Positions 5,290 through 42,071 of a DNA stretch of 46,029 nucleotides are shown piece by piece. This DNA comes from a virus: UHGV virus genome UHGV-0229940. One strand, given 5' to 3'. Under the pieces are notes generated by a model that saw only the letters and a program-made list of their open reading frames with translations, searched no databases and was not told the origin of the DNA. Position 1 is the first letter of the stretch; each line of letters begins with the position of its first letter. The position numbers were made by a program, and so were the translations under genes.

Positions 5290-5754
5290 TTACTTTGGAT
5301 ATACACTGTCAAGATAAATGTCAGCTTCCATTCTACGTCTGTTTTTCAGGCCGTTTGAAGTGACCTTCTTACCTTTTACTGTAACCTTGTTCCACCACTG
5401 CATAGCTTCTGCGCAACCTACCTTATTACCAGCATTGTGGCGCTTGATAAATGTAGAATCCTGCATAGCTGTGATGCCGATGTTGTATGTTTCACTTACA
5501 AGTGCATCAAACTCGTTCTGAGAAGTTGGAACCTTGATAGCTTTGTTCACTGCTGTAACAAACTTTTCAACATCTGCGAGAAGATAATGTTCAGCTTGTT
5601 CAGCAGTAATTATCATACCCATCTTAACAGGTTTTCCGTCAATACGGATTGTACCATACCCGATTGTATGGATTCCGGCAGAGTCTTCGTAAGCCTCTAA
5701 CTTCAGACCTTCAAAGAACTTAATAGCTTCTAAACCTTTTCTTGAGAGTTGCAT
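5290..5754 (-). CDS. endolysin, glycoside hydrolase family 24 (phage lysozyme)
   Basis: 154 aa; N-terminal EGLKLEAYEDSAGIHTIGYG matches the T4-lysozyme-type catalytic motif (Glu ... Asp ... TIGxG). Confidence 0.85.
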   Translation of the reverse strand: MQLSRKGLEAIKFFEGLKLEAYEDSAGIHTIGYGTIRIDGKPVKMGMIITAEQAEHYLLADVEKFVTAVNKAIKVPTSQNEFDALVSETYNIGITAMQDSTFIKRHNAGNKVGCAEAMQWWNKVTVKGKKVTSNGLKNRRRMEADIYLDSVYPK

Positions 5755-6638
5755 TATGCCTCCCCTGCTGGGTTAACTGTAACTGTTGCCGCATTAGATG
5801 TTACAGAGCCACCTGCGCCAGTCACTACACAGGTGTAGCTTCCTGCATCAGCAGCGGTTGCACCTTCTTTGGTGTAAGTTGCAGCAGTTGCGTCTGGGAT
5901 GACTTCCTCACCTTTCTTCCACTGATAACCTGTCGCACCTGTTGCCACAACATTCAGTGTTAAGGTCTCACCTTCAGTGATTTCTTGATTTGCTGGCTGT
6001 TGAGTGATTACCGGAAGTGCATTCACAGTCACTGTTGCTGCATCTGAGGTAACACTTGTTCCACCCTCTCCAGATACAACACAAGTGTATGAACCAGCGT
6101 CAGAAGGTGCTACTGACTGTTTTGTGTAAGTTGCAGAATTGGCACTAGGGATGTCCTCACCATCCTTCTTCCACTGATATCCAGTGGCGTTAGTTGCTAG
6201 AATGCTTAGAGTAAGTGTGCCACCCTCATTGACTGTTTGACCTGTTGGTTGCTGAGTAATTGCTGGTGGCTTAATAGCATCCTTCAACTTAGCATTCAAC
6301 ATTGAGAACGGCTTAACTCTTGCCAGCCATTCACAATAAACTGTATCAACGTCTTTACCATTGATAATTGCATATTGTAAGTCCATGAAGAAGTCAGACG
6401 TTCTCATTTGAGCACCAACGCTGTAAAGCAACTCATCACTAAATGGAACTTTGTAGTCTGGTTTGTAGTCAAACTTCTTAACTTCTGCAATATCAGCTTC
6501 AGGCCAATACGAACTATAGGTAAGTGGTAAAATAGCCTCTTGATATGTTCTAAAATCATATCTCTTACCAGCCTTTACGTTCGCAATGAAGCCCTTCACA
6601 AACTCTTTAAAGTCTGGGTAAGTCTTTGCTTTAATCAT
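5754..6638 (-). CDS. protein with N-terminal domain of unknown function and two tandem C-terminal Ig-like domains
   Basis: 294 aa; two about 85 aa repeats each containing ITQQP ... GATGYQWKK ... AGSYTCVV, typical of Ig-like domains; N-terminal 110 aa paralogous to the next gene. Confidence 0.7.
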   Translation of the reverse strand: MIKAKTYPDFKEFVKGFIANVKAGKRYDFRTYQEAILPLTYSSYWPEADIAEVKKFDYKPDYKVPFSDELLYSVGAQMRTSDFFMDLQYAIINGKDVDTVYCEWLARVKPFSMLNAKLKDAIKPPAITQQPTGQTVNEGGTLTLSILATNATGYQWKKDGEDIPSANSATYTKQSVAPSDAGSYTCVVSGEGGTSVTSDAATVTVNALPVITQQPANQEITEGETLTLNVVATGATGYQWKKGEEVIPDATAATYTKEGATAADAGSYTCVVTGAGGSVTSNAATVTVNPAGEA

Positions 6639-8716: not shown

Positions 8717-10132
8717 ATGAGCGAGTTATTTAAACATGCGCACCTTCATGCAGGTCGAACTGAAAATGGTGCTGTAAACCATACTTCATCAATGTCTGCT
8801 CTGGTAGACTTCTACAAAGCCGCTGGCTCAAGCCGTAGCAATGTAGAAATCTTACCAGACCTGTTCTACAAAGCTTTGCGTGAGGATGTTGATGTTGCAG
8901 TTCGTATTTTACTGCATATGCGAGATGTACGAGAAGGTATGGGTGAGCGTAAAGCTTTCCGAACTGTTTTACTTCAAGCACTTGAAGACAAGGTTTTAGA
9001 GCCTACGCAGGTTCTTCGCATTATGGATAAGATTGCAGAACTTGGTCGTTTTGATGACTTCAAAATCTTCGTAGGTACTCGTTTCGAGACAGATGCCTTC
9101 AAACACCTAGAAGCAGCATTACTAGAACCTGCAACAGCAGGTTTGGCGGCTAAGTGGTTACCACGAGTCAAACCACGTCATAAGCAGTTTGTAAAACGTT
9201 TCTGCAAGTTTGCCAACTTGAGTGAGAAAGAGTACCGCACACTGTTGTCTGCACTATCTGATACAGTTGAGCAAAAAATCTCTGCTAATGAGTTTGGTAA
9301 GATTGACTACAGTAAGATTCCTTCACTTGCTGCTGCACGTTACCAAAAACTGTTTAACCGCAAAGATGGAGAACGCTACAAAGCTTACATCGAGTCCTTA
9401 TCAAAGGGTGAGACTAAGATTAATGCTGGTGCTGTTTACCCATACGATGTAATTAAATCTGTTAAGCATGGTAATGCAGATGTTGCTAATGAGCAGTGGA
9501 AAGCACTACCAAACTGGATGGCAGATGGTGAAAACATCTTGTGTATGTCTGATGTTTCAAGCTCAATGTCTTGGGTGAATTTTGGTTCAATTACTGCTCT
9601 TGATATTGGTGTTTCACTTGCATTGTATGTAGCAGAACGCAATACAGGTTGCTTCAAGGATGAGTTAATGGTTTATTCAACAAACCCTCACTTCATCGAA
9701 CTGAGTGGTGATTTACGAAACCGTCATCGTCAGGTGATGCGACATGTTGAATATGGCTCAACTAACTTACAAGCAGCTTTTGACCGCATTCTTGAGGTAG
9801 GTAAGAGAAACAACTTGACTCAGAAAGACATGCCAAGTAAGCTTATCATCTTCTCAGATATGGAGTTCAATCAGGTTGATGGAGCTAACGGTCGTACAAA
9901 CTTTGAAGCAATTCAGAGTAAGTACAAAAAAGCTGGGTACGAAATGCCTCAACTGGTATTCTGGTACTTAGCAAACCGTAATGGTACTTGCGAAGTGTCT
10001 GTTAAGGATAACGGTGTAGCAATGGTATCTGGTTTTTCTCCAGCTACTTTAAAAGCTCTGCTTGGTGGTGAGAAGTTTGACCCAATCAGTGTAATGCTCA
10101 AAGCAGTAATGATTGACCGTTACATCTGGTAA
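8717..10132 (+). CDS. von Willebrand factor A (vWA) domain protein with MIDAS motif; Ro60/TROVE-like two-part architecture is a hypothesis
   Basis: 471 aa; DxSxS MIDAS motif in ILCMSDVSSSMSW about residue 275; about 270 aa N-terminal region upstream of the vWA fold. Confidence 0.8.
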   Translation: MSELFKHAHLHAGRTENGAVNHTSSMSALVDFYKAAGSSRSNVEILPDLFYKALREDVDVAVRILLHMRDVREGMGERKAFRTVLLQALEDKVLEPTQVLRIMDKIAELGRFDDFKIFVGTRFETDAFKHLEAALLEPATAGLAAKWLPRVKPRHKQFVKRFCKFANLSEKEYRTLLSALSDTVEQKISANEFGKIDYSKIPSLAAARYQKLFNRKDGERYKAYIESLSKGETKINAGAVYPYDVIKSVKHGNADVANEQWKALPNWMADGENILCMSDVSSSMSWVNFGSITALDIGVSLALYVAERNTGCFKDELMVYSTNPHFIELSGDLRNRHRQVMRHVEYGSTNLQAAFDRILEVGKRNNLTQKDMPSKLIIFSDMEFNQVDGANGRTNFEAIQSKYKKAGYEMPQLVFWYLANRNGTCEVSVKDNGVAMVSGFSPATLKALLGGEKFDPISVMLKAVMIDRYIW

Positions 10133-10150
10133 AAAGTTTTAAAAAGGGTA

Positions 10151-10179
10151 TTGACAATGTGTTTGATACCCTTTAATAT
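10151..10179 (+). promoter_or_regulatory. sigma70-like promoter (TTGACA, 17 nt spacer, TAATAT) overlapping inverted repeat GGGTAT/ATACCC
   Basis: Consensus -35 at 10151-10156 and -10 at 10174-10179; lies upstream of the first tRNA. Confidence 0.55.
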
Positions 10180-10241
10180 GTTCTACATAGAAACGAAATG
10201 AGAGCTTTTCTAAGATACTGAAAAATATTTTAAAAAAGTTC

Positions 10242-10270
10242 TTGACAACCACTAAAAAATAATGTTAAAG
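10242..10270 (+). promoter_or_regulatory. second promoter-like TTGACA box followed by inverted repeat AACCACT/AGTGGTT
   Basis: TTGACA at 10242-10247; weak -10 candidates; 7 bp inverted repeat spanning the -10 region. Confidence 0.3.
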
Positions 10271-10297
10271 TGGTTACATAGAGTTTGAAAAGTTTAT

Positions 10298-10374
10298 CTC
10301 TGTTTAGCTCAGCTTGGTAGAGCGTTCCGTTTGGGGCGGTAAGGCCGGAGGTTCAAGTCCTCCAACAGAGACCA
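10298..10374 (+). tRNA. tRNA-Pro (anticodon TGG)
   Basis: Manual cloverleaf: acceptor CTCTGTT/AACAGAG, T-arm GGAGG-TTCAAGT-CCTCC, anticodon loop TTTGGGG, CCA encoded. Confidence 0.7.
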
Positions 10375-10381
10375 AATTAAT

Positions 10382-10456
10382 GTTCCAGTAGACAAAATGG
10401 TAAAGTCACCACTCTTTCAAAGTGGATATCTGAGGGTTCAAATCCCTTCTGGAACG
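10382..10456 (+). tRNA. tRNA-Glu (anticodon TTC)
   Basis: Acceptor GTTCCAG/CTGGAAC, anticodon stem CCACT/AGTGG, loop CTTTCAA. Confidence 0.7.
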
Positions 10457-10466
10457 CAAGTTTTGA

Positions 10467-10540
10467 CAGAAGACCAATTACAGCAAACTTAATCTACTCA
10501 TCTGACACGAAATCGGACAAAGAAGATATTTGGTCTGGTC
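10467..10540 (+). ncRNA. inter-tRNA structured spacer element, copy 1 (5' box CAGAAGACC-NNN-TACAGCAA, 3' box GGTCTGG; AGACCAAT pairs with ATTTGGTCT)
   Basis: Conserved boxes with a complementary flank whose sequence differs between copies while pairing is kept. Confidence 0.5.
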
Positions 10541-10549
10541 ATTGAGAAT

Positions 10550-10626
10550 TGCGGGTATAGAGAAAGGGCGTCTCACATGTCTCATTAGCATGGTATCGGC
10601 AGGTTCGACTCCTGCACCCGCCTCCA
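10550..10626 (+). tRNA. tRNA-Met (anticodon CAT); position 1:72 is a T:C mismatch
   Basis: T-arm GCAGG-TTCGACT-CCTGC, acceptor 3' ACCCGCC, anticodon loop CTCATTA, CCA encoded. Confidence 0.6.
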
Positions 10627-10632
10627 ATTTTG

Positions 10633-10694
10633 CAGAAGACCGTATTCAGCAACAAAATACTTTTTGCGGATAAAAGAAAAAACACGGTCTGGCA
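10633..10694 (+). ncRNA. inter-tRNA structured spacer element, copy 2 (AGACCGT pairs with ACGGTCT)
   Basis: Same CAGAAGACC ... CAGCAA 5' box and GGTCTGG 3' box as copy 1, with compensatory change in the pairing flank. Confidence 0.5.
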
Positions 10695-10703
10695 ATGTAT
10701 TAA

Positions 10704-10780
10704 GGTTAGGAAGCACATAAGGTATGTGCGGTCGCCTGTTAAGCGAATGGCACAGGGTTCGAATCCCTGACTAACCGCCA
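10704..10780 (+). tRNA. tRNA-Asn (anticodon GTT)
   Basis: T-arm CAGGG-TTCGAAT-CCCTG, anticodon loop CTGTTAA, CCA encoded. Confidence 0.7.
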
Positions 10781-10788
10781 AATTAAAT

Positions 10789-10876
10789 GTGTCGTTATCC
10801 CGTAGATGGTAGCGGTGGGGACTGTAAATCCCTTGTCATTGAGACTCGGTAGGTTCGACTCCTACACGGCACACCA
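10789..10876 (+). tRNA. tRNA-Tyr (anticodon GTA), long variable arm
   Basis: 88 nt; anticodon stem GGGGA/TCCCT, loop CTGTAAA; T-arm GTAGG-TTCGACT-CCTAC. Confidence 0.7.
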
Positions 10877-10881
10877 ATAAA

Positions 10882-10958
10882 GGCTATGTAGTTTAACTGG
10901 AGAAAATACTCCCCTGTCACGGGAGATGATGTGAGTTCAAGTCTCATCGTAGCCGCCA
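10882..10958 (+). tRNA. tRNA-Asp (anticodon GTC)
   Basis: Anticodon stem CTCCC/GGGAG, loop CTGTCAC; acceptor GGCTATG/CGTAGCC. Confidence 0.7.
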
Positions 10959-11019
10959 ATTTTGAGAGGGCTATTTAGCCCCTCCCTTAAAGAGTTCTTA
11001 CGAGTATTCTTTAAAGGAG

Positions 11020-11095
11020 CAGAAGACCAAATACAGCAAGAATGTATGAAATTTCAAGCCAATTTAATTTTGAAAATTTAAAACTTGGTCTGGCT
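11020..11095 (+). ncRNA. inter-tRNA structured spacer element, copy 3 (AGACCAA pairs with TTGGTCT)
   Basis: Conserved 5' and 3' boxes with covarying complementary flank. Confidence 0.5.
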
Positions 11096-11106
11096 CAACA
11101 AATTTA

Positions 11107-11238
11107 CAGAAGACCGTTTACAGCAAAACTTAAACAATCTATTTCTCCGGTAAAGAAAAGGCGAAGGTTCGATTCCTTCACTCGGCAGATGTCGAGTTGG
11201 TGTAATGGTAGCACTTAAGATGATAAACAACGGTCTGG
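11107..11238 (+). ncRNA. inter-tRNA structured spacer element, copy 4 (AGACCGTT pairs with AACGGTCT), enclosing a permuted tRNA-like segment
   Basis: Same boxes as copies 1-3; internal segment 11139-11214 has tRNA anticodon-arm, T-arm and acceptor-3' features followed by acceptor-5' and D-arm features. Confidence 0.45.
11139..11214 (+). pseudogene. permuted or fragmentary tRNA-like sequence (3' two-thirds precedes a complementary 5' acceptor and D-arm)
   Basis: Anticodon-like stem TTTCT/AGAAA, T-arm GAAGG-TTCGATT-CCTTC, acceptor-3' ACTCGGC, then GTCGAGT (pairs with ACTCGGC) and D-arm GTGTAATGGTAGCAC. Confidence 0.35.
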
Positions 11239-11241
11239 TAA

Positions 11242-11257
11242 TTATCTTTGTAGATAA
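11242..11257. repeat. palindromic hairpin TTATCT-TTGT-AGATAA (left copy)
   Basis: Exact reverse complement of the copy at 11366-11381. Confidence 0.6.
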
Positions 11258-11365
11258 GTTATTAAGCTTACCTGTGAGTATGCGACCACAAAGGGTGAAA
11301 GGGTAAATTCTAGATTTAAACCCAAAAAGGCACATCGCTACAGACCTTAAGCAAGTCTGGGTAGC

Positions 11366-11381
11366 TTATCTACAAAGATAA
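11366..11381. repeat. palindromic hairpin TTATCT-ACAA-AGATAA (right copy, inverted relative to 11242-11257)
   Basis: The two copies bracket a 108 bp segment. Confidence 0.6.
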
Positions 11382-11387
11382 TTTAAT

Positions 11388-11463
11388 GGAAGTGTAGCAG
11401 AATGGTGATGCGGCAGACTTTTAATCTGACAGGCGATGGGTTCGAATCCCTCCACTTCTACCA
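11388..11463 (+). tRNA. tRNA-Lys (anticodon TTT)
   Basis: Anticodon stem CAGA/TCTG, loop CTTTTAA; acceptor GGAAGTG/CACTTCT; CCA encoded. Confidence 0.6.
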
Positions 11464-11467
11464 ATAT

Positions 11468-11544
11468 GGTTCAGTCGCAGATAAGGTAATGCAAGGGTCT
11501 CATAAGCCCTATGAATGTGGGTTCGATTCCCATCTGAACCTCCA
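11468..11544 (+). tRNA. tRNA with CAT anticodon (Met, initiator or Ile-lysidine type; GGG/CCC run in anticodon stem)
   Basis: Perfect acceptor GGTTCAG/CTGAACC, anticodon loop CTCATAA, T-arm GTGGG-TTCGATT-CCCAT. Confidence 0.7.
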
Positions 11545-11545
11545 A

Positions 11546-11621
11546 GCTGGTATAGTTAAGAAGGTTATAACACTCCCCTGATAAGGGAACATCGGTGGTT
11601 CGATTCCACCTACCAGTACCA
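11546..11621 (+). tRNA. tRNA-Ile (anticodon GAT)
   Basis: Anticodon loop CTGATAA; T-arm GGTGG-TTCGATT-CCACC. Confidence 0.65.
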
Positions 11622-11636
11622 ATTTCAATAAAGTTG

Positions 11637-11665
11637 TTGACATTGAGATGTGACTACTTTATAGT
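11637..11665 (+). promoter_or_regulatory. strong sigma70-like promoter inside the tRNA array (TTGACA, 17 nt spacer, TATAGT)
   Basis: -35 at 11637-11642, -10 at 11660-11665. Confidence 0.6.
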
Positions 11666-11868
11666 AACCTTAGTTTTCGTTGCGTAGCGTCTATTTTGCA
11701 AATTTAAAATAAATGCAAACGACAATGTTTTTCTGGCAGTAGCTTGATAGGCTAAACACCAGTGAGGTCTTCCAATCCCTCATCAAAGAATTTGGCGTAC
11801 TAGCCCACGGTATGATTAATAAGGTGGGCATCTTTAAGGGCTTTCTAAGAGAGTCTTTAAAGATTAAT
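11666..11868 (+). ncRNA. about 200 nt promoter-proximal non-tRNA spacer; candidate small stable RNA
   Basis: No ORF and no tRNA fold found; contains stem GCCCAC/GTGGGC (about 11789-11814); downstream of the promoter at 11637. Confidence 0.3.
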
Positions 11869-11945
11869 GCACCCTTAGTTCAATTGGATAGAGCAACGGT
11901 CTTCTAAATCGTTAGTTACAGGTTCGAATCCTGTAGGGTGTGCCA
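11869..11945 (+). tRNA. tRNA-Arg (anticodon TCT)
   Basis: D-arm GTTC-AATTGGATA-GAGC, anticodon stem ACGGT/ATCGT, loop CTTCTAA. Confidence 0.7.
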
Positions 11946-12087
11946 ATTAGTTAGCAGATTACTTAGACGACCTAAGCGGGTCTTCCTGTAGGGAGGTGGT
12001 CTGTATCTCATGTTTTCCAGAACATGTAAATAATCTGAGAAGGGGCTTTACAGTGTTGAGATAATACGGTAAGCTTCGAATTATAAT

Positions 12088-12170
12088 ATGGGACGATGTT
12101 AAGACTCTAAGGCATGAGCAACGGCCTCCAAAACCGTTTCAAAGGGGTTCAACTCCTCCGTCCCATGCCA
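12088..12170 (+). tRNA. tRNA-Trp-like (anticodon CCA) with about 7 extra nucleotides between acceptor and D-arm
   Basis: Perfect acceptor ATGGGAC/GTCCCAT, anticodon stem ACGG/CCGT, loop CTCCAAA; total about 80 nt without CCA. Confidence 0.5.
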
Positions 12171-12183
12171 AAGTCTTATTAGG

Positions 12184-12271
12184 GGTAGGTAGCGGCTAAT
12201 GGTAGCCAAACTGTCTTGAAAACAGTTGCCACTGTAGAGATACGGTGAGGGTTCGACTCCTTTACTTACCG
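12184..12271 (+). tRNA. tRNA-Ser (anticodon TGA), long variable arm
   Basis: Anticodon stem ACTGT/ACAGT, loop CTTGAAA; 88 nt. Confidence 0.7.
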
Positions 12272-12429
12272 CCTAATAAGGTTTAAAGCCAAGCTTCATT
12301 CGGATGTTGCTTTGGTATCCCTCGTGTATTGTCGTACAAGCACAGTAAAGCACCTAGTAGGTGTCACGGAGAAGAGATAATATCAAGCTCTCCAAAGGTT
12401 CTAGTCACCGGATTAAACAAGACTATGCA

Positions 12430-12451
12430 AAGACCTTTTTAGGTCTTTTTA
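12430..12451 (+). terminator. terminator-like hairpin inside the tRNA array (AAGACC-TTTTTA-GGTCTT then T-run)
   Basis: 6 bp perfect stem followed by TTTTT. Confidence 0.4.
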
Positions 12452-12529
12452 GAGGGCTTCTAAGGTTATTACAGCTTGTTGTGGAACCTTGTTGCTTAGG
12501 TTCTTAGAAGTTCTCTAAAAAGATTTAAT

Positions 12530-12607
12530 GGGAGATTGACGGTAATTGGTAAACCTACCATCCTTAGAAGTTGGTGTTTGAGGGTTCGAATCCCTTGTCT
12601 CCTACCA
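12530..12607 (+). tRNA. tRNA with anticodon TAG (Leu decoding) but short variable arm
   Basis: Acceptor GGGAGAT/GTCTCCT, T-arm GAGGG-TTCGAAT-CCCTT, anticodon loop CTTAGAA; 78 nt. Confidence 0.5.
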
Positions 12608-12614
12608 AATTAAT

Positions 12615-12690
12615 GCAGGTGTAGCAAAATGGTTATGCGGCTGACTCTTAATCAGTAAGACGATGGGTTCAATTCCCTCCACCTGTACCA
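12615..12690 (+). tRNA. tRNA-Lys (anticodon CTT)
   Basis: Anticodon stem GCTGA/TCAGT, loop CTCTTAA; paralogous to the Lys-TTT gene. Confidence 0.6.
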
Positions 12691-12696
12691 GACATT

Positions 12697-12772
12697 GGGG
12701 ATGTAGTTTACATGGTTAAAACATAAGTTTTGCAAACTTAAGTACAGGGTTCAATTCCCTGCTTCTCCACCA
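12697..12772 (+). tRNA. tRNA-Ala (anticodon TGC) with G3:U70 identity pair
   Basis: Anticodon stem TAAGT/ACTTA, loop TTTGCAA; G at position 3 opposite T at position 70. Confidence 0.7.
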
Positions 12773-12778
12773 ATTAGT

Positions 12779-12853
12779 GCATCCATAGTTTAAACGGGAA
12801 AATTACAGTCTTCCAAACTGAGGTTGAGGGTTCGATTCCCTCTGGATGCTCCA
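12779..12853 (+). tRNA. tRNA-Gly (anticodon TCC)
   Basis: Perfect acceptor GCATCCA/TGGATGC, anticodon loop CTTCCAA. Confidence 0.7.
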
Positions 12854-12860
12854 AATTAAT

Positions 12861-12937
12861 GCTGCTTTCGTATAATTGGCTATTACACATCCCTTGTAAG
12901 GATGGAAATGCGGGTTCGAGTCCTGTGAGCAGCACCA
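12861..12937 (+). tRNA. tRNA-Thr (anticodon TGT)
   Basis: Anticodon stem CATCC/GGATG, loop CTTGTAA. Confidence 0.7.
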
Positions 12938-13032
12938 ATTCAGAGGTCAAGTGAAAGACCGCTGGTGTCAACTGAAGACCGTAACAAATTCCACGGAGTT
13001 GAGTTAGCGGCACAACTTCAGACCTCTTTCAC

Positions 13033-13107
13033 ACTCGCTTAGTTTATATGGTAAAACATCACCCTTACAAGATGAAGAAAAAGGTTCAAGTCCTTTAGTG
13101 AGTACCA
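13033..13107 (+). tRNA. tRNA-Val (anticodon TAC)
   Basis: T-arm AAAGG-TTCAAGT-CCTTT, anticodon loop CTTACAA. Confidence 0.6.
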
Positions 13108-13108
13108 T

Positions 13109-13186
13109 GTTCCAGTATCCCAATTGGCAGAGGATGCAAGCTCAAACCTTGTATTAGTGACGGTTCGAATCCGTCTTGGAACACCA
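13109..13186 (+). tRNA. tRNA with anticodon CAA (Leu decoding) but short variable arm
   Basis: Acceptor GTTCCAG/TTGGAAC, T-arm GACGG-TTCGAAT-CCGTC, anticodon loop CTCAAAC. Confidence 0.5.
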
Positions 13187-13191
13187 ATTTT

Positions 13192-13267
13192 GCAGGATTA
13201 GTTCAAATGGATAGAGCAACAGTCTACGAAGCTGTTAATAGGGGTTCGAATCCCTTATCCTGCGCCA
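13192..13267 (+). tRNA. tRNA-Arg (anticodon ACG)
   Basis: Perfect acceptor GCAGGAT/ATCCTGC, anticodon loop CTACGAA. Confidence 0.7.
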
Positions 13268-13284
13268 GATAAAAAGGTGATACT

Positions 13285-13527
13285 ATGCAAACATTAACAG
13301 TAGTTGAACATGAAAACTGTGAGAATATTGAGTTTGTCAGGGTCATTGGTGTTGAACACCACATTTTCTTAAAAGTAGGGTACTTATGTGACCCCGCTAG
13401 AGTAGAAAGATTTATACGTGATTGTTTTGGTGGTAGACAGCTAAAGAGTGTTATTTTTGAGACAGTTTTACCAGAAGGTTTAGAAACGAATAATAACATT
13501 TATCTCCTTACAAGGATTAGACGATGA
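13285..13527 (+). CDS. hypothetical protein encoded inside the tRNA array
   Basis: 80 aa ORF with SD AAAGGTGA upstream. Confidence 0.5.
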   Translation: MQTLTVVEHENCENIEFVRVIGVEHHIFLKVGYLCDPARVERFIRDCFGGRQLKSVIFETVLPEGLETNNNIYLLTRIRR

Positions 13528-14081
13528 GATATTTAAAATATGCTTCATGGATTTTCCTAGCTTTGCTAGAACCATTAGCAGCAACCTTAGCAGTTATCTT
13601 AGCACCTTTCGTAGTTCCATTTTACAGTGAGAAGAAAGGCCACTTACCTTTCGGATTTAGATGGATGGAGACATATGACAACCCAATTGATGGTGACGAA
13701 GGTCATATCGAACGATGGGCTAAGATTAGAAAGATTGGTAAGCTGGGTGTCTACATGCAGAGAGTCGGATGGCTCTGGAGAAACAAAGCTTATAACTTCT
13801 CTTACCATGTATTAGGAAGAGATGTAAAAGATGTTACTAAGTGGAAAGGTAATATCAACGTAAGTTCTGACCCTGAAGATAATCAGACAGGTTATCTCCT
13901 AATGTGGAACAGTAATGCTTGGGGATTATTCGCTTTTATCCCATCAATTAAAGTCTTTGGTAAACAGTTTTACTGGAGAATTTATATTGGATGGAAACTA
14001 AAAAGTGTTGTCCCAGAAGAAAGAGCATTCTCAAGGGAAAGAGTTATGTTGGCATTCTTTATTCATCCACTGAGAAAGTAA
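13524..14081 (+). CDS. hypothetical membrane-anchored protein encoded inside the tRNA array
   Basis: 185 aa; N-terminal hydrophobic segment ASWIFLALLEPLAATLAVILAPFVVPF; 4 nt overlap with the upstream ORF. Confidence 0.6.
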   Translation: MRYLKYASWIFLALLEPLAATLAVILAPFVVPFYSEKKGHLPFGFRWMETYDNPIDGDEGHIERWAKIRKIGKLGVYMQRVGWLWRNKAYNFSYHVLGRDVKDVTKWKGNINVSSDPEDNQTGYLLMWNSNAWGLFAFIPSIKVFGKQFYWRIYIGWKLKSVVPEERAFSRERVMLAFFIHPLRK

Positions 14082-14089
14082 AGATTTAA

Positions 14090-14165
14090 AGGGGATTAGT
14101 TTACAAGGTTAAAACCTCGGTCTTTGAAATCGAAGAAGTTGGTTCAATTCCAACATCCCCCGCCA
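14090..14165 (+). tRNA. tRNA-Gln (anticodon TTG), weak 1:72 pair
   Basis: D-stem GTTT/AAAC, anticodon stem TCGGT/ATCGA, loop CTTTGAA. Confidence 0.65.
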
Positions 14166-14167
14166 AT

Positions 14168-14246
14168 GCTCCATTACTCCAATTGGCAGAGAGGCCAGAC
14201 TTAAAATCTGTGTTATGTATCGGTTCGAATCCGATATGGAGTACCA
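14168..14246 (+). tRNA. tRNA with anticodon TAA (Leu decoding) but short variable arm
   Basis: Acceptor GCTCCAT/ATGGAGT, T-arm ATCGG-TTCGAAT-CCGAT, anticodon loop CTTAAAA. Confidence 0.5.
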
Positions 14247-14251
14247 AATTT

Positions 14252-14327
14252 AGCGGTATAGCATAACTGGCAATGCAACAGTCTCTGAAGCTGTCCTATT
14301 AAGGTTCAAATCCTTATGCCGCTGCCA
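14252..14327 (+). tRNA. tRNA-Gln (anticodon CTG)
   Basis: Anticodon stem ACAGT/GCTGT, loop CTCTGAA. Confidence 0.6.
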
Positions 14328-14358
14328 CTTCTAAGGGTTCTTACGAGAGTCCTTAAAT

Positions 14359-14434
14359 GTGGCCTTATCATAAATGGTAATGACCCATGCTGTGAACATG
14401 GTCTATACGGGTTCAAATCCCGTAGGTCACCCCA
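14359..14434 (+). tRNA. tRNA-His (anticodon GTG)
   Basis: Anticodon stem CCATG/CATGG, loop CTGTGAA; T-arm ACGGG-TTCAAAT-CCCGT. Confidence 0.7.
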
Positions 14435-14439
14435 ATTTA

Positions 14440-14516
14440 TAGTCCAAGTAGCTTATATGGTTAAAGCGCGTGTCTGAAAAACATGAGAAGAGGGTTCAAA
14501 TCCCACTGGACTACCA
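14440..14516 (+). tRNA. tRNA-Phe (anticodon GAA)
   Basis: Perfect acceptor TAGTCCA/TGGACTA, anticodon loop CTGAAAA. Confidence 0.65.
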
Positions 14517-14532
14517 ATTTCAAAGGTGCTTA

Positions 14533-15267
14533 ATGAAAGAGATGACAGAACAAGGTAAGGAGATTTTTAATCTCTTAAAAACCGGTAAAGGGTTTTCTAA
14601 CCCACTTATTACTGGTGCAGCAGTTCTCGGTGGAACCGTAGCTGCTTCTACATCACTTGTAAGCTCTATTAGTTCTGTAACAGACCCTACAATGCAGGAG
14701 AAACTTGTTGCTGCTGGACTTACAACAGTCCTTCTAAACAGCTTTACAACAAGCCTTACAAGCACTACAGCAACTACTAAGACCCTGACAGACTACGGTC
14801 AAAAATCTATTGATGAGTTTTCATCACGTATGCAGGTAGCAAAGGGATATTCCAATGTTATGGGTGCAGCAGGAGAACAAGTTGGTTGTACACCGTTCAG
14901 TGGTATTATGGGTGTTGCTACAGAATATGGTCAAAAAGCTATTGATACGATTAACAGTACACTAGAGAGTGTTAACGATGTATTAAGTGACTTACAAGAC
15001 GCTATTGACAAGGGTCTTGATACTGTTTCTGATTTAGCTAACCAAGCTGTCAGTAAGATTAATGAAGGTATCTCAAAGATTACAGCTTATGCAGATGAAG
15101 TTGTGCAGATGATTGAAGAAGAAGCTGCCCTTATTGCAGAGTACCTTAAAACGAATATCAATGGGTTCTTAGCAGGTATCTTACCAGACTGGTTTGATGA
15201 TGCCTGTAAAACTGGTGTAATTGACACTATTGCAACACCAGAAATGAAGAACGCATTACAGAAATAA
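14533..15267 (+). CDS. hypothetical Ser/Thr-rich protein encoded inside the tRNA array
   Basis: Six-frame ORF 14470-15267 would overlap two tRNAs, so start is placed at Met 14533 (MKEMTEQ ...); 244 aa. Confidence 0.6.
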   Translation: MKEMTEQGKEIFNLLKTGKGFSNPLITGAAVLGGTVAASTSLVSSISSVTDPTMQEKLVAAGLTTVLLNSFTTSLTSTTATTKTLTDYGQKSIDEFSSRMQVAKGYSNVMGAAGEQVGCTPFSGIMGVATEYGQKAIDTINSTLESVNDVLSDLQDAIDKGLDTVSDLANQAVSKINEGISKITAYADEVVQMIEEEAALIAEYLKTNINGFLAGILPDWFDDACKTGVIDTIATPEMKNALQK

Positions 15268-15361
15268 TGGAAGATTAACCCTAAAAGGTAAGGGAGCAGT
15301 TTGCTAAACTGCCAGTAGCTGAGAAATCGGTGTACCAGTTCAAGTCTGGTATCTTCCTCCA
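15268..15361 (+). tRNA. tRNA-Ser (anticodon GCT), long variable arm
   Basis: Perfect acceptor GGAAGAT/ATCTTCC, anticodon stem GCAGT/ACTGC, loop TTGCTAA; 94 nt. Confidence 0.7.
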
Positions 15362-15365
15362 ATTT

Positions 15366-15441
15366 GAATCCGTGACAGAAATGGCTATGTGCCTGTCTGC
15401 AAAACAGGTTTATAAGGGTTCGAGTCCCTTCGGATTCTCCA
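15366..15441 (+). tRNA. tRNA-Cys (anticodon GCA)
   Basis: Perfect acceptor GAATCCG/CGGATTC, anticodon stem CCTGT/ACAGG, loop CTGCAAA. Confidence 0.7.
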
Positions 15442-15480
15442 AGTTATTTTACTCTCTCTCTCAATTAAAATAATAATAAT

Positions 15481-15542
15481 GCCCTGCTATAAGTATTCTT
15501 CCTTTCGCTACCGAAGAGTATTTTTAGACAGGGCTTTTTTAC
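15481..15542 (+). terminator. long structured rho-independent terminator closing the tRNA array
   Basis: Outer stem GCCCTG/CAGGGC enclosing an imperfect inner hairpin, followed by TTTTTT at 15535-15540. Confidence 0.55.
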
Positions 15543-15665
15543 AGAGTTATACTTTATAGGAAGACTTATACAGTATGTCTCTGACGTACATTGTGGTTTC
15601 TCCTTGACGGTCTCTGTGCCGTCTTTTTTAAGGGGAAACATGGTTAATTATTTGGAGAAAACATA

Positions 15666-15866
15666 ATGAGTGAGACCGTTTACAAAGAACTTTATGAAGC
15701 TAATAAAAAGCTAGAATTTATGCAGAACACTATCATGGCAATTGCAGATAGATTATCTGTAGCAACAGGTATTGATATTAAAGAAGCATCTATGGATGCA
15801 CTTCTTGATGCTGTTGATGCAAAGTTCGAAGTTAAGAAAGAAGAGACTGCTACAGACTCTGAATAA
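15666..15866 (+). CDS. hypothetical small acidic protein upstream of terminase
   Basis: 66 aa ORF with SD GGAGAAAACA; terminase small subunit role not supported by motifs. Confidence 0.5.
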   Translation: MSETVYKELYEANKKLEFMQNTIMAIADRLSVATGIDIKEASMDALLDAVDAKFEVKKEETATDSE

Positions 15867-15887
15867 TTCTATTTGCGGAGGCGCTTA

Positions 15888-17489
15888 ATGGACTTAAATG
15901 CTGTTAAGCAGAAGCGAGTGGAAGATGTTAGGAAAGTCCTAGCTGGAGAGTTGGGGCTTTCTGATGAAGTAAAAGAAATTATTAAATCATTCGGTAAAGA
16001 CCCCTCTAAATTCCTTCCAACTCAAATTCTGACTTTATTAAGATACACACCAGACCAAGTTCGCCTTATCTTTAAATTGATGACTGATAAGAACTATGTA
16101 GCCCCTCAGCCGGGTTCTCAAGAGGTCTTTTTAAATACTAATGCTGACTTGGTTCTCTATGGTGGTGCTGCTGGTGCTGGTAAGACTGCCGCATTGTTAA
16201 TGGACTCTTTAAGATTTATTGAAGACCCTAACTATAATGCTGTATATTTCCGTCGAAATACAACACAGTTACAAGGTGGTTTATGGCCTGCTGCAAAGAA
16301 ACTATTTGGTAAGTTTGGTGGGATTCCTCACGAGCAGAAAATGACTATCACATTCCCTTCTGGGGCAACTATCAAGTTTACCTACCTAGAACTTGAAAAG
16401 CACGCTGAAGGTCATCAGGGTATTGAATACTCAGCTATTTACTTTGACGAAGGTACACACTTCTCTGCTTCACAGATTTCATACCTACAAACCCGTCTAC
16501 GTTCTGGTGCTGAAGGCGATTCATACATGAAGATTTCCATGAACCCAGATAGAGACCACTTTATTTACGATTGGGTAGAACCATTCTTAGACGAAGAAGG
16601 TTATCCAGACCCTGAAAAGTGTGGTCGTATTCGTTGGTATGTAATGAATGATGGTGTGATGGTTTCTGATTGGGAGAGAGACAAGATTCTTGAAATGTTC
16701 CCTCTTGAGATTCCTCAAACATACACCTTCATCTCTGGTACGATTGATGATAACCCAATCCTTGACTTCTTAGAGCCTAAGTACCGTGGTAAGTTGGAAA
16801 ACAACACTCCTGTAAACGTTGCAAGACTTCGTTTCGGTAACTGGAAGGCTCGTGCAGAAGGTTCAAACTATTGGCAAAGACAATGGTGTGAAATTGTTGA
16901 TTCACTCCCAGAAGATGTATTTGATGTTAGAGCATGGGACTTAGCAGCAACTTTACCATCTGAGATTAACCCTAATCCAGACTGGACAGCAGGTGTTAAG
17001 ATGGGTAAATCTAAAAAAGACGGTTGCTATTATATCATTGATGTAGTAAGATTTAGAGATAGACCCTCTGGAGTCGAAACACAAATCAATTTGACTGCTG
17101 AAAGTGACGGTAAGCGAACTGGTATTTTTATCCCTCAAGACCCAGGCGCTGCTGGTAAATCCTACGCAACATCCCTCATCAGGAAACTTGCCGAGAAAGG
17201 TTATCGAGCAAGAGCCAAACCAACAAATAAAGATAAAGTTACCCGCTTTGCGGGATTTTCTGCTGCTTCTGAAGCTGGACTTGTAAAAGTCTTGAGAGGT
17301 AGTTGGAATGAAGCTTACTTTCAAGAACTTGAAGGCTTTTGTGGTGACGGTAAAACTAAAGATGACCAAGTGGATGCTACCAGTGATGCTTTCAACAGTC
17401 TTAACGAAGTTAAATTATTCAAGCCACCATCAATGGGTGCTCACACAGATTTAGTGAGAGGAAACCCATATGAGGGGCTTAGACGTTGA
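15888..17489 (+). CDS. terminase large subunit
   Basis: Walker A motif LYGGAAGAGKT; size and position ahead of the portal; ATG at 15888 with GGAGG SD preferred over the TTG at 15873. Confidence 0.85.
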   Translation: MDLNAVKQKRVEDVRKVLAGELGLSDEVKEIIKSFGKDPSKFLPTQILTLLRYTPDQVRLIFKLMTDKNYVAPQPGSQEVFLNTNADLVLYGGAAGAGKTAALLMDSLRFIEDPNYNAVYFRRNTTQLQGGLWPAAKKLFGKFGGIPHEQKMTITFPSGATIKFTYLELEKHAEGHQGIEYSAIYFDEGTHFSASQISYLQTRLRSGAEGDSYMKISMNPDRDHFIYDWVEPFLDEEGYPDPEKCGRIRWYVMNDGVMVSDWERDKILEMFPLEIPQTYTFISGTIDDNPILDFLEPKYRGKLENNTPVNVARLRFGNWKARAEGSNYWQRQWCEIVDSLPEDVFDVRAWDLAATLPSEINPNPDWTAGVKMGKSKKDGCYYIIDVVRFRDRPSGVETQINLTAESDGKRTGIFIPQDPGAAGKSYATSLIRKLAEKGYRARAKPTNKDKVTRFAGFSAASEAGLVKVLRGSWNEAYFQELEGFCGDGKTKDDQVDATSDAFNSLNEVKLFKPPSMGAHTDLVRGNPYEGLRR

Positions 17490-41711: not shown

Positions 41712-42071
41712 TTATGGGAACAAGCACTTAATGTCATCGTTTTTGAAAACGAAACTTGTGTAGTTGTGACCATCAACATCTAGCCAAACAGCCTGAACAT
41801 CTACACCATCAAGATTCTGGTAAAGCTCTTTGATGAAGTGGTCTTTCACAATCTGGCTGCTAGTTGTTTCCAGCTTAATGTTCGAGATTGCTGAACCTAC
41901 AGCCATATAACCCATGACACGTTTCTTCTCAGTATGCTTAATCTTACCATCTTTGTAAGCCATAATGAGATTGGAGAGAATCTTCACACCATAATACTTT
42001 TCAAGGTGAGTAGGTACGCCATAAAAGCCTAATGCGAAGTTTTCAGAGTGGATAATGTTTTCACGTTTCAT
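41712..42071 (-). CDS. hypothetical protein
   Basis: 119 aa ORF. Confidence 0.55.
   Translation of the reverse strand: MKRENIIHSENFALGFYGVPTHLEKYYGVKILSNLIMAYKDGKIKHTEKKRVMGYMAVGSAISNIKLETTSSQIVKDHFIKELYQNLDGVDVQAVWLDVDGHNYTSFVFKNDDIKCLFP

What the first reader, a model, noticed from the sequence alone, without database searches (positions are those of the whole stretch)
10467..11238. Four paralogous spacer elements with conserved boxes and covarying stems between tRNA genes
Four inter-tRNA spacers each begin with CAGAAGACC-N3/4-(T)ACAGCAA and end with GGTCTGG. The flank of the 5' box pairs with the flank of the 3' box, and the pairing bases differ between copies while staying complementary: AGACCAAT/ATTTGGTCT, AGACCGT/ACGGTCT, AGACCAA/TTGGTCT and AGACCGTT/AACGGTCT. 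Compensatory change of this kind is strong evidence for a selected secondary structure. Candidate roles are processing signals, small regulatory RNAs, or recombination sites that shuffle tRNA genes.
Basis: seen in the sequence. Interest (0 to 1): 0.6.

Follow-up and report, generated by a model that had tools for sequence, protein, structure and literature searches.

The report
Phage Y-like RNAs beside Ro60-like gene
The four "spacers" in this Felix O1-type phage's tRNA cluster are probably small RNA genes that partner the Ro60-shaped protein encoded just upstream, and they carry the same sequence and structure signature as the Class I RNAs of Dictyostelium, whose function is unknown and which were thought unique to social amoebae.

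The parts
8717..10132 (+). Gene for the proposed protein partner: 471 aa, Pfam DUF2828 + DUF7788, with a Ro60-like fold (helical ring domain plus vWA domain with a MIDAS-type D279-x-S281-x-S283 motif).
10151..10271 (+). Two sigma-70-like promoters (10151-10179 and 10242-10271) at the head of the tRNA/sRNA array. An inverted repeat at 10143-10174 may terminate the upstream gene.
   Evidence: Consensus scan only; function not shown.
10464..10541 (+). Element 1 (short form). Outer stem 10464-10467/10538-10541; AGA/G loop; inner helix AGACCAA 10471-10477 / UUGGUCU 10530-10536; box UUACAGCAA 10478-10486; invariant G at 10537. The Class I-like core is 10472-10537.
   Evidence: Fold. Phage-only scaffold model R1: 28.4 bits, E 2.3e-5. 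Dictyostelid-only model R3: 20.5 bits, E 0.0037.
10630..10695 (+). Element 2 (short form). Outer stem UUGC/GCAA; inner helix AGACCGU 10637-10643 / ACGGUCU 10684-10690; box AUUCAGCAA 10644-10652; invariant G at 10691.
   Evidence: Fold z -2.9. R1: 33.9 bits, E 6.7e-7, the top hit in the window. R3: 19.4 bits, E 0.0072. Rfam RF01414: 24 bits.
11017..11096 (+). Element 3 (short form). Outer stem GAGC/GCUC; inner helix AGACCAA 11024-11030 / UUGGUCU 11085-11091; box AUACAGCAA 11031-11039; internal hairpin whose loop begins CCAAU, like the 3' end of the array's tRNAs.
   Evidence: Fold z -2.5. R1: 25.6 bits, E 1.4e-4.
11104..11241 (+). Element 4 (tRNA-mimic form). Outer stem 11104-11107/11238-11241; inner helix AGACCGUU 11111-11118 / AACGGUCU 11229-11236; box UACAGCAA 11119-11126; V hairpin 11142-11158; T arm 11163-11179 (loop UUCGAUU); closed acceptor-like hairpin 11180-11197 (ACUCGGC-AGAU-GUCGAGU); D arm 11199-11215 (loop AAUGGUA).
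   Evidence: Fold. Orphan T-arm scan. ARAGORN calls no tRNA here. Class A model R2, built from 13 distant phages: 57.7 bits, E 5.8e-9, full length, against 29 bits or less for tRNA junctions.

Best explanation
The four elements are genes for small non-coding RNAs that act as Y-RNA-like partners of the Ro60-fold protein encoded immediately upstream.

Each RNA has a constant module and a variable interior. The constant module is a closing helix that starts with a conserved G-C pair, a 3' CUG, and a single-stranded U(U/A)C(A/C)GCAA box directly 3' of the 5' strand. This module is the likely protein-binding site. The interior is the likely effector part: a small hairpin in E1-E3 and a permuted tRNA mimic in E4.

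In this phage the RNAs are embedded in the tRNA operon. They are presumably co-transcribed from the promoters near 10151 and 10242 and released when the flanking tRNAs are processed. By analogy with Ro60/Y RNA particles, the RNA would tether or gate the ring-shaped protein towards RNA substrates or host RNA enzymes. Plausible roles are tRNA surveillance or repair, or decoying or hijacking host tRNA-directed nucleases or exonucleases.

Shown here: the conserved structured RNA family, its strand-specific linkage to the gene across distant phages, the Ro60-like fold of the protein model, and the tRNA-like and Class I-like architecture. Inferred: expression as discrete RNAs, binding to this protein, and the downstream function.
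For: Protein:
- Ro60/TROVE+vWA fold.
- The family is widespread in large phages.

Linkage between gene and RNA:
- In 75 loci whose protein is 38-47% identical, 88 of 178 strict boxes on the gene's strand have a 7-bp partner plus G, against 2 of 100 on the other strand.
- By these criteria 51 of 75 loci have at least one element. Median distance to the gene is 219 nt, and 76 of 88 lie within 1 kb.
- A looser scan gives 112 hits on the gene's strand, 20 on the other strand and 14.7 in shuffles.
- All 73 R1 hits at E<=0.01 are on the gene's strand.
- Elements are present in loci with no tRNA genes.

Membership of the window's copies, tested non-circularly:
- Models trained without any Felix-like sequence rank E2, E1 and E3 as the top three hits in the 46-kb window.
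- The class A model ranks E4 first at 57.7 bits.

Stem diversity: 3-4 pair types at the inner positions and an invariant G-C at position 2 (descriptive only, because that set was selected for pairing).

Y RNA parallel:
- E4 has the V-T-AS-D order that defines YrlA (Chen 2014, PMC4201824).
- Rfam YrlA RF02553 hits class A relatives at 29-39 bits through the T, AS and D arms.
- Canonical phage Ro60 binds adjacent Y-like RNAs and host PNPase in vitro (PMC12135203).
Against: - There are no expression or end-mapping data, and no binding data for any DUF2828 protein.
- The protein matches no TROVE model by sequence, so the fold similarity rests on a predicted structure.
- The canonical Ro-binding motif (GNCGAAN0-1G / GGUCCGA) is absent.
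- Rfam YrlA and Y_RNA do not hit E4 even at E<=10.
- About 20 of 75 distant loci show no element with the methods used.
- E1-E3 fold only modestly better than shuffles (z -1.3 to -2.9).
- Elements lying tens of nucleotides from the gene in other phages could instead be UTR-borne autoregulatory sites.
Confidence: 0.7

Rival explanations
1. The elements are cis-acting processing or insulator structures of the polycistronic tRNA transcript. They would guide RNase P, E or III cleavage or keep neighbouring tRNAs folding independently, with no life of their own as RNAs.
For: They lie between tRNA genes in one operon. The Felix-specific covarying 4-bp outer stem and AGA/G loop flank the core and are not seen in distant members, so this outer part could well be a processing feature.
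Against: The core scaffold occurs next to the Ro60-like gene in phages with no tRNA within 5 kb (L008, L010, L013, L023). A conserved single-stranded 8-9-nt box and a permuted tRNA mimic are not needed for spacer processing. Most spacers of the same array lack the elements. The same signature defines abundant free-standing RNAs in Dictyostelium (PMC7919456).
Confidence: 0.1
2. The elements are protein-binding operators in the mRNA or UTRs, through which the DUF2828 protein regulates itself or neighbouring transcripts. They would not be separate sRNAs.
For: In many distant loci the element starts 30-70 nt after the stop codon or just before the start codon, on the same strand.
Against: In this window the elements are separated from the gene by two promoter-like sites and two tRNAs, and there are four copies. 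Up to 5-6 tandem copies occur in other loci (L076, L068). Interiors carrying tRNA-like domains suggest trans-acting effector RNAs, as with Y RNAs.
Confidence: 0.1
3. The elements are DNA-level repeats, either recombination sites or miniature mobile elements, that shuffle tRNA genes.
For: The four copies share about 20 nt of near-identical sequence in direct orientation. The tRNA content between E2 and E3 differs among Felix-like genomes, with spacing from 305 to 836 nt. HNH endonuclease genes sit in the Felix O1 array.
Against: Strict strand specificity. Compensatory changes preserve RNA pairing, while the stem sequence differs in every lineage. There are no target-site duplications and no transposase. 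The elements keep a fixed order in seven genomes. Homologous recombination between copies may occur, but as a by-product.
Confidence: 0.04
4. The elements are decayed tRNA genes (pseudo-tRNAs) with no current function.
For: E4 contains a T arm, a D arm and acceptor strands, and Rfam tRNA gives a partial 22-bit hit.
Against: The permuted order with a closed acceptor hairpin is conserved in phages whose protein is only about 40% identical, and a model built from them scores E4 at 57.7 bits. E1-E3 have no tRNA remnants. The element is nearly invariant across Felix-like genomes.
Confidence: 0.03

Closest known systems
Bacterial and phage YrlA-type Y RNAs with Ro60/Rsr (Rfam RF02553; Chen et al. 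2014, PMC4201824; Thermus phage phiLo Ro60-Yrl1/2, PMC12135203)
   Same: Small RNAs encoded within about 1 kb of a ring-plus-vWA Ro60-fold protein, on the same strand and often in several copies. A terminal helix plus conserved motif forms the presumed protein-binding module, and the interior is a variable effector. One paralogue (E4) carries a tRNA-like domain in the order V hairpin, T arm, closed acceptor stem-loop, D arm, and shorter paralogues lack it, as YrlB does. Rfam YrlA aligns to class A relatives through the T, AS and D arms.
   Different: The protein belongs to a different sequence family (DUF2828/DUF7788, no TROVE hit). The RNA lacks the GNCGAAN0-1G / CGAA Ro-binding motif and has U(U/A)C(A/C)GCAA plus a 3' CUG instead. 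Rfam scores are below gathering, and E4 gets no hit. In this phage the RNAs are embedded in a tRNA operon. No binding has been shown.
Dictyostelid Class I RNAs (Rfam RF01414; Aspegren 2004; Avesson 2011; Kjellin et al. 2021, PMC7919456)
   Same: Length of about 50-70 nt. A short covarying helix joins the 5' and 3' ends. A conserved 5' G pairs with the C of a conserved 3' CUG(U). The unstructured motif (CC)UUACAGCAA lies directly after the 5' strand, the interior is variable, and there are many paralogues. Some amoeba members also contain T-arm modules (asu_can_20, ppa_can_99). Model hits are reciprocal: RF01414 and my dictyostelid-only model R3 hit only the phage elements.
   Different: Class I RNAs are eukaryotic, with their own DUSE promoter, and were reported as unique to Dictyostelia. 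The known direct binder is an RRM protein (Rnp1A), not a Ro60-like protein. In most species the box sits 2 nt from the stem rather than 1 nt. Scores on the phage elements are sub-threshold for Rfam (12.8-26 bits against 41.5). Whether Dictyostelia encode a DUF2828 protein was not testable here.
Metazoan Y RNAs (Rfam RF00019) with Ro60
   Same: General logic: a 5'/3' terminal helix with a conserved protein-binding site flanked by an internal loop, a variable loop region, and a Ro60-fold partner.
   Different: No sequence or model similarity (no RF00019 hit at E<=1), and a different binding motif.
Stable non-tRNA RNAs in phage tRNA clusters (e.g. T4 rnaC/rnaD; from my own knowledge, not tested)
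   Same: Small structured RNAs co-transcribed and co-processed with phage tRNAs, function unknown.
   Different: No sequence relationship was examined, and no linked Ro60-like gene is known to me in T4.

Membership tests
YrlA-type bacterial Y RNA (RF02553) | Encoded within 4 kb of, and on the same strand as, a Ro60 orthologue | tested here: met
YrlA-type bacterial Y RNA (RF02553) | The partner protein is a TROVE-domain protein by sequence | tested here: not met
   Pfam finds only DUF2828 and DUF7788. phmmer against PDB finds no Ro60.
YrlA-type bacterial Y RNA (RF02553) | tRNA-like domain in the order V, T arm, closed acceptor stem-loop (AS), D arm | tested here: met
   Met for E4 only: fold, orphan T-arm scan, class A model 57.7 bits. 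E1-E3 lack it, as YrlB does.
YrlA-type bacterial Y RNA (RF02553) | 5' GNCGAAN0-1G (CGAA) Ro-binding motif | tested here: not met
   Direct reading: the 5' region is (G)(A)CAGAAGACC. Distant members have AG-N5 and no CGAA.
YrlA-type bacterial Y RNA (RF02553) | Reaches the Rfam gathering score (69 bits) | tested here: not met
   No YrlA hit on E4 at E<=10. Class A relatives score 28.7-39.2 bits.
Dictyostelid Class I RNA (RF01414) | Short covarying stem joining the 5' and 3' ends; conserved 5' G paired with the C of a 3' CUG(U) | tested here: met
   GACC.../...GGUCUG in all four copies. G-C is invariant and the following G is invariant in 34 distant phage members. Defined in PMC7919456.
Dictyostelid Class I RNA (RF01414) | Conserved, unstructured 11-nt motif (Rfam consensus CCUUACAGCAA) next to the 5' strand | tested here: met
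   UUACAGCAA in E1 and E4, AUACAGCAA in E3, AUUCAGCAA in E2, unpaired in the folds. That is 8-9 of the 11 positions, placed 1 nt closer to the stem.
Dictyostelid Class I RNA (RF01414) | Reaches the Rfam gathering score (41.5 bits) | tested here: not met
   E2 scores 24 bits and E4 12.8 bits. Distant phage members score 16-26 bits. My dictyostelid-only model R3 gives E1 20.5 bits (E 0.0037) and E2 19.4 bits (E 0.0072), and does not hit E3 or E4.
Dictyostelid Class I RNA (RF01414) | Own eukaryotic promoter (DUSE about 60 nt upstream); occurrence in Dictyostelia | tested here: not met
   The window is a Felixounavirus. The elements lie in a tRNA operon behind sigma-70-like promoters.
Ro60/TROVE protein (for ORF 8717-10132) | Helical-repeat ring domain followed by a vWA domain with a MIDAS motif | tested here: met
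Ro60/TROVE protein (for ORF 8717-10132) | Binds Y RNA on the outer surface and misfolded RNA ends in the central hole | not testable with these tools
   Needs biochemistry or a structure of the complex.
Canonical tRNA | Cloverleaf with paired 5' and 3' termini and an anticodon loop, called by tRNA finders | tested here: not met
   ARAGORN makes no call at E4. Rfam tRNA gives a partial 22 bits against 29. The acceptor is closed by an AGAU loop. The V-hairpin loop is 6 or 7 nt in different Felix-like genomes.
Metazoan Y RNA (RF00019) | Match to the Rfam model | tested here: not met
   No hit at E<=1 over 9000-16500.

The most novel reading that the evidence does not exclude
The phage RNAs linked to DUF2828 and the Class I RNAs of dictyostelid social amoebae are one RNA family. 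They would be the dedicated ligands of DUF2828-type Ro60-like proteins, a protein family found in phages, giant viruses of protists and eukaryotes. Class I RNAs would then be a cryptic eukaryotic Y-RNA analogue, not an invention unique to Dictyostelia. Their unknown function could be approached through a Ro60-like RNP, with tRNA-mimic variants at both ends of the distribution.
Probability: 0.4. Interest if true: 0.92.

Novelty: new variant of a known kind. Interest (0 to 1): 0.85.

Why it matters
**A large missing branch of Ro60/Y RNA biology.** Ro60/Y RNA particles are known from animals, about 5% of bacteria and a few phages with recognisable TROVE genes. This locus indicates a second, sequence-unrecognisable branch. 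A large family of Ro60-fold proteins (DUF2828/DUF7788; 2,571 database clusters at E<=1e-5 in one capped search) comes with its own RNA family, spread across many large phages and often next to tRNA arrays.

**Function for unannotated sequence.** It gives a testable function to a very common "RNA-binding protein / hypothetical" phage gene and to unannotated spacers in Felix O1-type therapeutic and typing phages.

**An open eukaryotic question becomes testable.** The RNA signature matches dictyostelid Class I RNAs, which are abundant, developmentally important, of unknown mechanism, and reported as absent outside Dictyostelia. The experiment is clear: does a DUF2828-type protein bind the G-stem/UUACAGCAA/CUG module, in the phage and in the amoeba?

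**Phage tRNA biology.** tRNA-mimic modules attached to a Ro-like scaffold in tRNA-rich phages point to tRNA surveillance, repair, or a counter-measure against host tRNA-cleaving defences.

Tried and rejected
**Sequence and database searches**
- Sequence search of the ORF against PDB gave nothing useful.
- The first literature search was swamped by the English word "trove".
- DUF2828 and PF11443 searches found no functional paper.
- Rfam at E<=1 gave no family over E1, E3 or E4 apart from a partial tRNA hit.

**Leads that could not be followed**
- afdb50 Foldseek was unavailable. I wanted it to ask whether Dictyostelium has a DUF2828 protein.
- A peptide-word search of the truncated dictyostelid proteomes in the Kjellin supplement was negative and uninformative.
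- Avesson 2011, which lists the Class I pull-down proteins, and the 2020 Ro60 review are not held.
- No supplement is held for Chen 2014, so I could not check its phage list.

**Technical dead ends and rejected hits**
- The exact Felix box AGAAGAC is not conserved in distant loci. The motif had to be redefined as AG-N5 / box / N5-CUG.
- The R1 hit at 41850-41908 (- strand) lies inside a 119-aa ORF and is treated as chance.
- The first dictyostelid alignment (A4) had a register shift and was rebuilt as A5.

**Readings rejected:** pseudo-tRNA remnants, recombination sites and pure processing signals; reasons are given under the rival explanations.
Full report
**What is in the window.** The window is a Felix O1-type myovirus (Felixounavirus), 99.1% identical over the region to Escherichia phage vB_EcoM-Ro111lw. 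It carries 26 tRNA genes on the + strand between 10298 and 15441. AGAAGACC occurs 5 times against 1.45 expected, four of them here. The composite 5' pattern has 3 matches against 0 expected. GGTCTGG closes each element.

**Shared architecture.** RNA folding gives the same build for all four:
- a 4-bp outer stem that differs in every copy (UGAC/GUCA, UUGC/GCAA, GAGC/GCUC, UUAC/GUAA);
- an AGA/G internal loop;
- a 7-8-bp inner helix AGACC-NN(N)/(N)NN-GGUCU;
- an unpaired U(U/A)CAGCAA box directly after the 5' strand.

E2's box is AUUCAGCAA. E3 and E4 share one spacer and are not each flanked by tRNAs. In the window and six other Felix-like genomes, including Felix O1 itself, all four elements are present in the same order with the outer stem always 4/4 paired. 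E2 occurs as two alleles that differ by a two-sided swap, UUGC/GCAA against UUAC/GUAA. The Felix O1 RefSeq record leaves these spacers unannotated.

**Element 4 is a permuted tRNA mimic.** Inside its closing helix E4 has a 5-bp hairpin (V, 11142-11158) and a canonical T arm (GAAGG-UUCGAUU-CCUUC, 11163-11179). These are followed by a 7-bp acceptor-like helix closed by a 4-nt loop (ACUCGGC-AGAU-GUCGAGU, 11180-11197) and a D arm with the GG loop (11199-11215). ARAGORN does not call it, and Rfam tRNA gives only a partial 22 bits. V-T-AS-D is the domain order that defines bacterial YrlA Y RNAs, the tRNA-mimicking partners of the Ro60 orthologue Rsr, which are encoded within 4 kb of rsr on the same strand (Chen et al. 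2014, PMC4201824).

**The upstream gene has a Ro60 fold.**
- ORF 8717-10132 (471 aa) ends 332 nt before E1. By sequence it matches only DUF2828 + DUF7788, with nothing in PDB.
- An AlphaFold2 model built on 37 homologues is confident (pLDDT 85.5, pTM 0.86).
- Foldseek against PDB returns Ro60/TROVE chains as the twelve best hits, all full length: Xenopus and human Ro60, Deinococcus Rsr and Thermus phage phiLo Ro60. E goes down to 2.7e-8 and TM is 0.65/0.60. Isolated vWA domains come next.
- A MIDAS-type DxSxS motif (D279, S281, S283) is invariant.
- PHROG 850 and RefSeq call the protein "RNA-binding protein" and nothing more.
- In the viral structure library the same fold appears in giant viruses of protists (Pithovirus TM 0.88, CroV, Marseillevirus, Mimiviridae). 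Annotated TROVE / "Ro-like" phage proteins appear at E of about 1e-8 to 1e-9.

**The RNA travels with the gene.** I fetched 80 viral contigs that encode a relative of the protein. Five are Felix-like, and in the other 75 the protein is 38-47% identical. A scan for T arms outside called tRNAs found the same permuted module next to the gene in many unrelated loci. Each was preceded by UUUCAGCAA, UUACAGCAA or UACCGCAA directly after a 5' strand whose complement lies downstream and ends in CUG. This defines a scaffold: AG-N5, one nucleotide, U(U/A)C(A/C)GCAA, interior, N5-CU, G.

Counts that do not depend on how elements were chosen:
- On the gene's strand, 88 of 178 strict boxes have a 7-bp partner followed by G. 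On the opposite strand, 2 of 100 do.
- By these criteria 51 of 75 loci carry at least one element. Median distance to the gene is 219 nt, 76 of 88 lie within 1 kb, and they are split evenly between upstream and downstream.
- A looser scan gives 112 hits on the gene's strand, 20 on the other strand and 14.7 in shuffles.
- Loci with no tRNA gene within 5 kb still carry the element right after the gene (L008, L010, L013, L023). The link is therefore to the gene, not to tRNA arrays.

The stem sequence differs in almost every phage, while the second pair is always G-C and the nucleotide after the helix is always G. The 100% pairing in that set is by construction; only the diversity is informative.

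**Non-circular membership tests.**
- A covariance model of the scaffold built from 34 short forms of distant loci (R1, no Felix-like sequence) was searched over the whole 46-kb window on both strands. Its three best hits are E2 (33.9 bits, E 6.7e-7), E1 (28.4 bits, 2.3e-5) and E3 (25.6 bits, 1.4e-4), all full-length matches.
- A fourth hit at 41850-41908 on the - strand lies inside an ORF and is probably chance.
- Over the 75 loci (769 kb, both strands), all 73 R1 hits at E<=0.01 are on the gene's strand, and 39 of them were not in the training set.
- A model of the tRNA-like class built from 13 distant sequences (R2) hits E4 over its full length at 57.7 bits (E 5.8e-9). tRNA-tRNA junctions, the false-positive type Chen et al. 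warned about, score 29 bits or less.
- E-values from these models are rough because calibration is shortened.

**Anatomy of the family.** The scaffold is constant and the interior varies:
- short forms of 47-77 nt, often with one hairpin whose loop begins (G)CCAAU, the sequence that follows the acceptor stem of the real tRNAs in these arrays;
- class A, the permuted cloverleaf, as in E4;
- class B, with D, anticodon and T arms in normal order and the scaffold replacing the acceptor stem (L037:4734, L042:4758);
- other recurring interiors.

A constant protein-binding stem with a variable effector module is how Y RNAs are organised. Both tRNA topologies are also known among bacterial Y RNAs (YrlA and Yrn1).

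**Comparison with YrlA.** Rfam holds YrlA (RF02553). It hits class A members in distant loci below its 69-bit gathering score: L025 at 39.2 bits, L076:9497-9612 at 38.9 bits over the full model, and L076:6816-6928 at 28.7 bits. The alignments match through the T, AS and D arms but mismatch in the Rsr-binding stem. E4 itself gets no YrlA hit at E<=10. The CGAA-type Ro-binding motif is absent. So this works like a YrlA/Rsr pair but does not belong to that family by sequence, on either the protein or the RNA side. Canonical phage Ro60 with CGAA-type Y-like RNAs is documented, and for phiLo binding to the RNAs and to host PNPase has been shown (PMC12135203). None of these papers mentions DUF2828 or this box. 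The jumbo-phage survey notes only a ROT/TROVE protein in a few phages (PMC7824862).

**Unexpected match to Dictyostelium Class I RNAs.** The only other Rfam model that touches the elements is RF01414, Class I RNA from Dictyostelium. Its consensus is GaUcuC-CUUACAGCAA...GagAuC-UG.

Kjellin et al. 2021 (PMC7919456) define Class I RNAs as follows:
- 42-65 nt long;
- a short covarying stem joining the ends;
- a completely conserved 5' G that pairs with the C of a conserved 3' CUGU;
- an unstructured 11-nt motif next to the 5' strand, with a variable remainder;
- many paralogues per genome.

They report that function is unknown and that no members exist outside Dictyostelia. Only an RRM protein, Rnp1A, is named among four interactors.

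The phage scaffold matches each structural feature. The box lies 1 nt from the stem, as in D. fasciculatum-type members, rather than 2 nt as in most dictyostelids.

RF01414 hits are sub-threshold (12.8-26 bits against 41.5), but every one falls on an element already defined: window E2 and E4, three in L076, and one each in L053, L063 and L055. In those scans none fell elsewhere.

I then built a model from 27 curated dictyostelid sequences of six species only (R3):
- In the whole window it gives exactly two hits at E<=10: E1 (20.5 bits, E 0.0037) and E2 (19.4 bits, E 0.0072), bounded precisely by G...CUG.
- In the 75 phage loci it gives 28 hits at E<=1. Of these, 27 are full-length and on the gene's strand; the ones I compared share their coordinates with R1-defined elements. 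The only minus-strand hit is partial.
- In the other direction, the strict phage template is satisfied by 14 of 37 dictyostelid sequences and a relaxed one by 28 of 37, against 0 in shuffles.

Some amoeba Class I RNAs also carry T-arm modules inside the scaffold (asu_can_20, ppa_can_99), paralleling the phage classes. DUF2828 occurs in plants and in mimivirus-like sequences and in giant viruses. Whether dictyostelids encode it could not be tested. No paper in the library links Class I RNA with Ro60.

**Mechanism, with steps marked.**
- Shown: a conserved, strand-specific, structured RNA family physically linked to a gene whose predicted fold is Ro60-like; four paralogues in this phage, one of them a tRNA mimic.
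- Inferred: the RNAs are co-transcribed with the tRNAs from the sigma-70-like promoters at 10151-10179 and 10242-10271 and are released by tRNA processing.
- Inferred: the G-C/CUG helix plus the single-stranded box is the binding site for the protein.
- Inferred: the interiors recruit or mimic tRNA-handling factors.
- Inferred: the particle acts in RNA surveillance or repair, or subverts host RNases or anticodon nucleases, by analogy with Rsr-Y RNA-PNPase and phiLo Ro60.

**Verdict.** The best explanation is a Y-RNA-like set of sRNAs partnered with a Ro60-like DUF2828 protein (confidence about 0.7 for the partnership; the existence of the linked RNA family is much more certain). It is a new variant of a known kind, a Ro60/Y RNA-type system with a different protein family and a different RNA recognition module. 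The link to Dictyostelium Class I RNAs is the most novel reading still open (probability about 0.4).

Noticed in passing
window 11239-11387 (+): Directly 3' of E4 lies a separate, very stable structured RNA (-48.3 kcal/mol, z -7.2) closed by a stem of about 24 bp. One internal hairpin is CAGAC-CUUAAGCAA-GUCUG, whose loop resembles the family box and whose stem resembles the AGAC/GUCU helix. It could be a fifth, minimal binding site or an unrelated sRNA.
   Followed up: partly
window 41850-41908 (-): The scaffold model R1 hits AUAUGGCUGU-agGUUCAGCAA...CAGCCAG at 22.2 bits (E 0.0012). It lies inside a 119-aa ORF (41712-42071, - strand), far from the Ro60-like gene, and is probably a chance match.
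   Followed up: partly
window 11622-11868, 11946-12183, 12274-12529, 12938-13032 (+): Other long spacers of the tRNA array do not belong to this family and are unexplained. 11622-11868 has a strong promoter-like site (11637-11665) and weak tmRNA-like partial hits. 11946-12183 has a weak tRNA-like hit at 12090-12164. 12938-13032 is closed by AGAGGUC/GACCUCU.
   Followed up: no
L001-L005, L081 (Felix-like loci), between E2 and E3: The distance between E2 and E3 ranges from about 305 to 836 nt among Felix-like genomes, so the tRNA content between two near-identical direct repeats varies. Felix O1 also has HNH endonuclease genes inserted in the array. Recombination between element copies could contribute to tRNA gain and loss.
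   Followed up: partly
Kjellin 2021 supplement file 48: asu_can_20, ppa_can_99: Some curated dictyostelid Class I RNAs contain canonical T-arm sequences (CCUAGGUUCGAUCCCUAGC; UUUGGUUCGAAUCCGAU). In asu_can_20 this is followed by a hairpin with a GGCAAC loop, similar to the closed acceptor hairpin of phage class A members such as L015.
   Followed up: partly
L037:4734-4834, L042:4758-4854; L007:4276-4371, L009:3133-3233, L012:149-281, L015:1265-1374, L026:4734-4829: Two further interior types share the same scaffold. Class B has D, anticodon and T arms in normal order with the scaffold replacing the acceptor stem. Class C has a conserved ...CCUUUCUGGAGGGGAAAGCAAAAACUCGCCAAAAC interior of unknown nature.
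   Followed up: no
L028:1293-1616; L025:10696-10922; L063:3253-3443: Other RNA genes lie near the Ro60-like gene in distant phages: a permuted tmRNA (71.7 bits) and group I introns (71.5 and 40.9 bits). This suggests these neighbourhoods are RNA-gene islands.
   Followed up: no
window 5754-6638 (-): A 294-aa ORF contains two tandem repeats of about 90 aa (…ITQQP..Q…EG.TLTL.V.AT.ATGYQWKK…SYTCVV.G..G…S..A.VTV) that look like Ig-like domains. This was seen only in the ORF listing.
   Followed up: no
window 11898-11905 (-) / tRNA-Arg(UCU) 11869-11945: The only other AGAAGACC in the window is the reverse complement of the anticodon stem-loop of tRNA-Arg(UCU) (GGUCUUCU). The 5' box of the elements is therefore complementary to that anticodon arm, which may be coincidence.
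   Followed up: no
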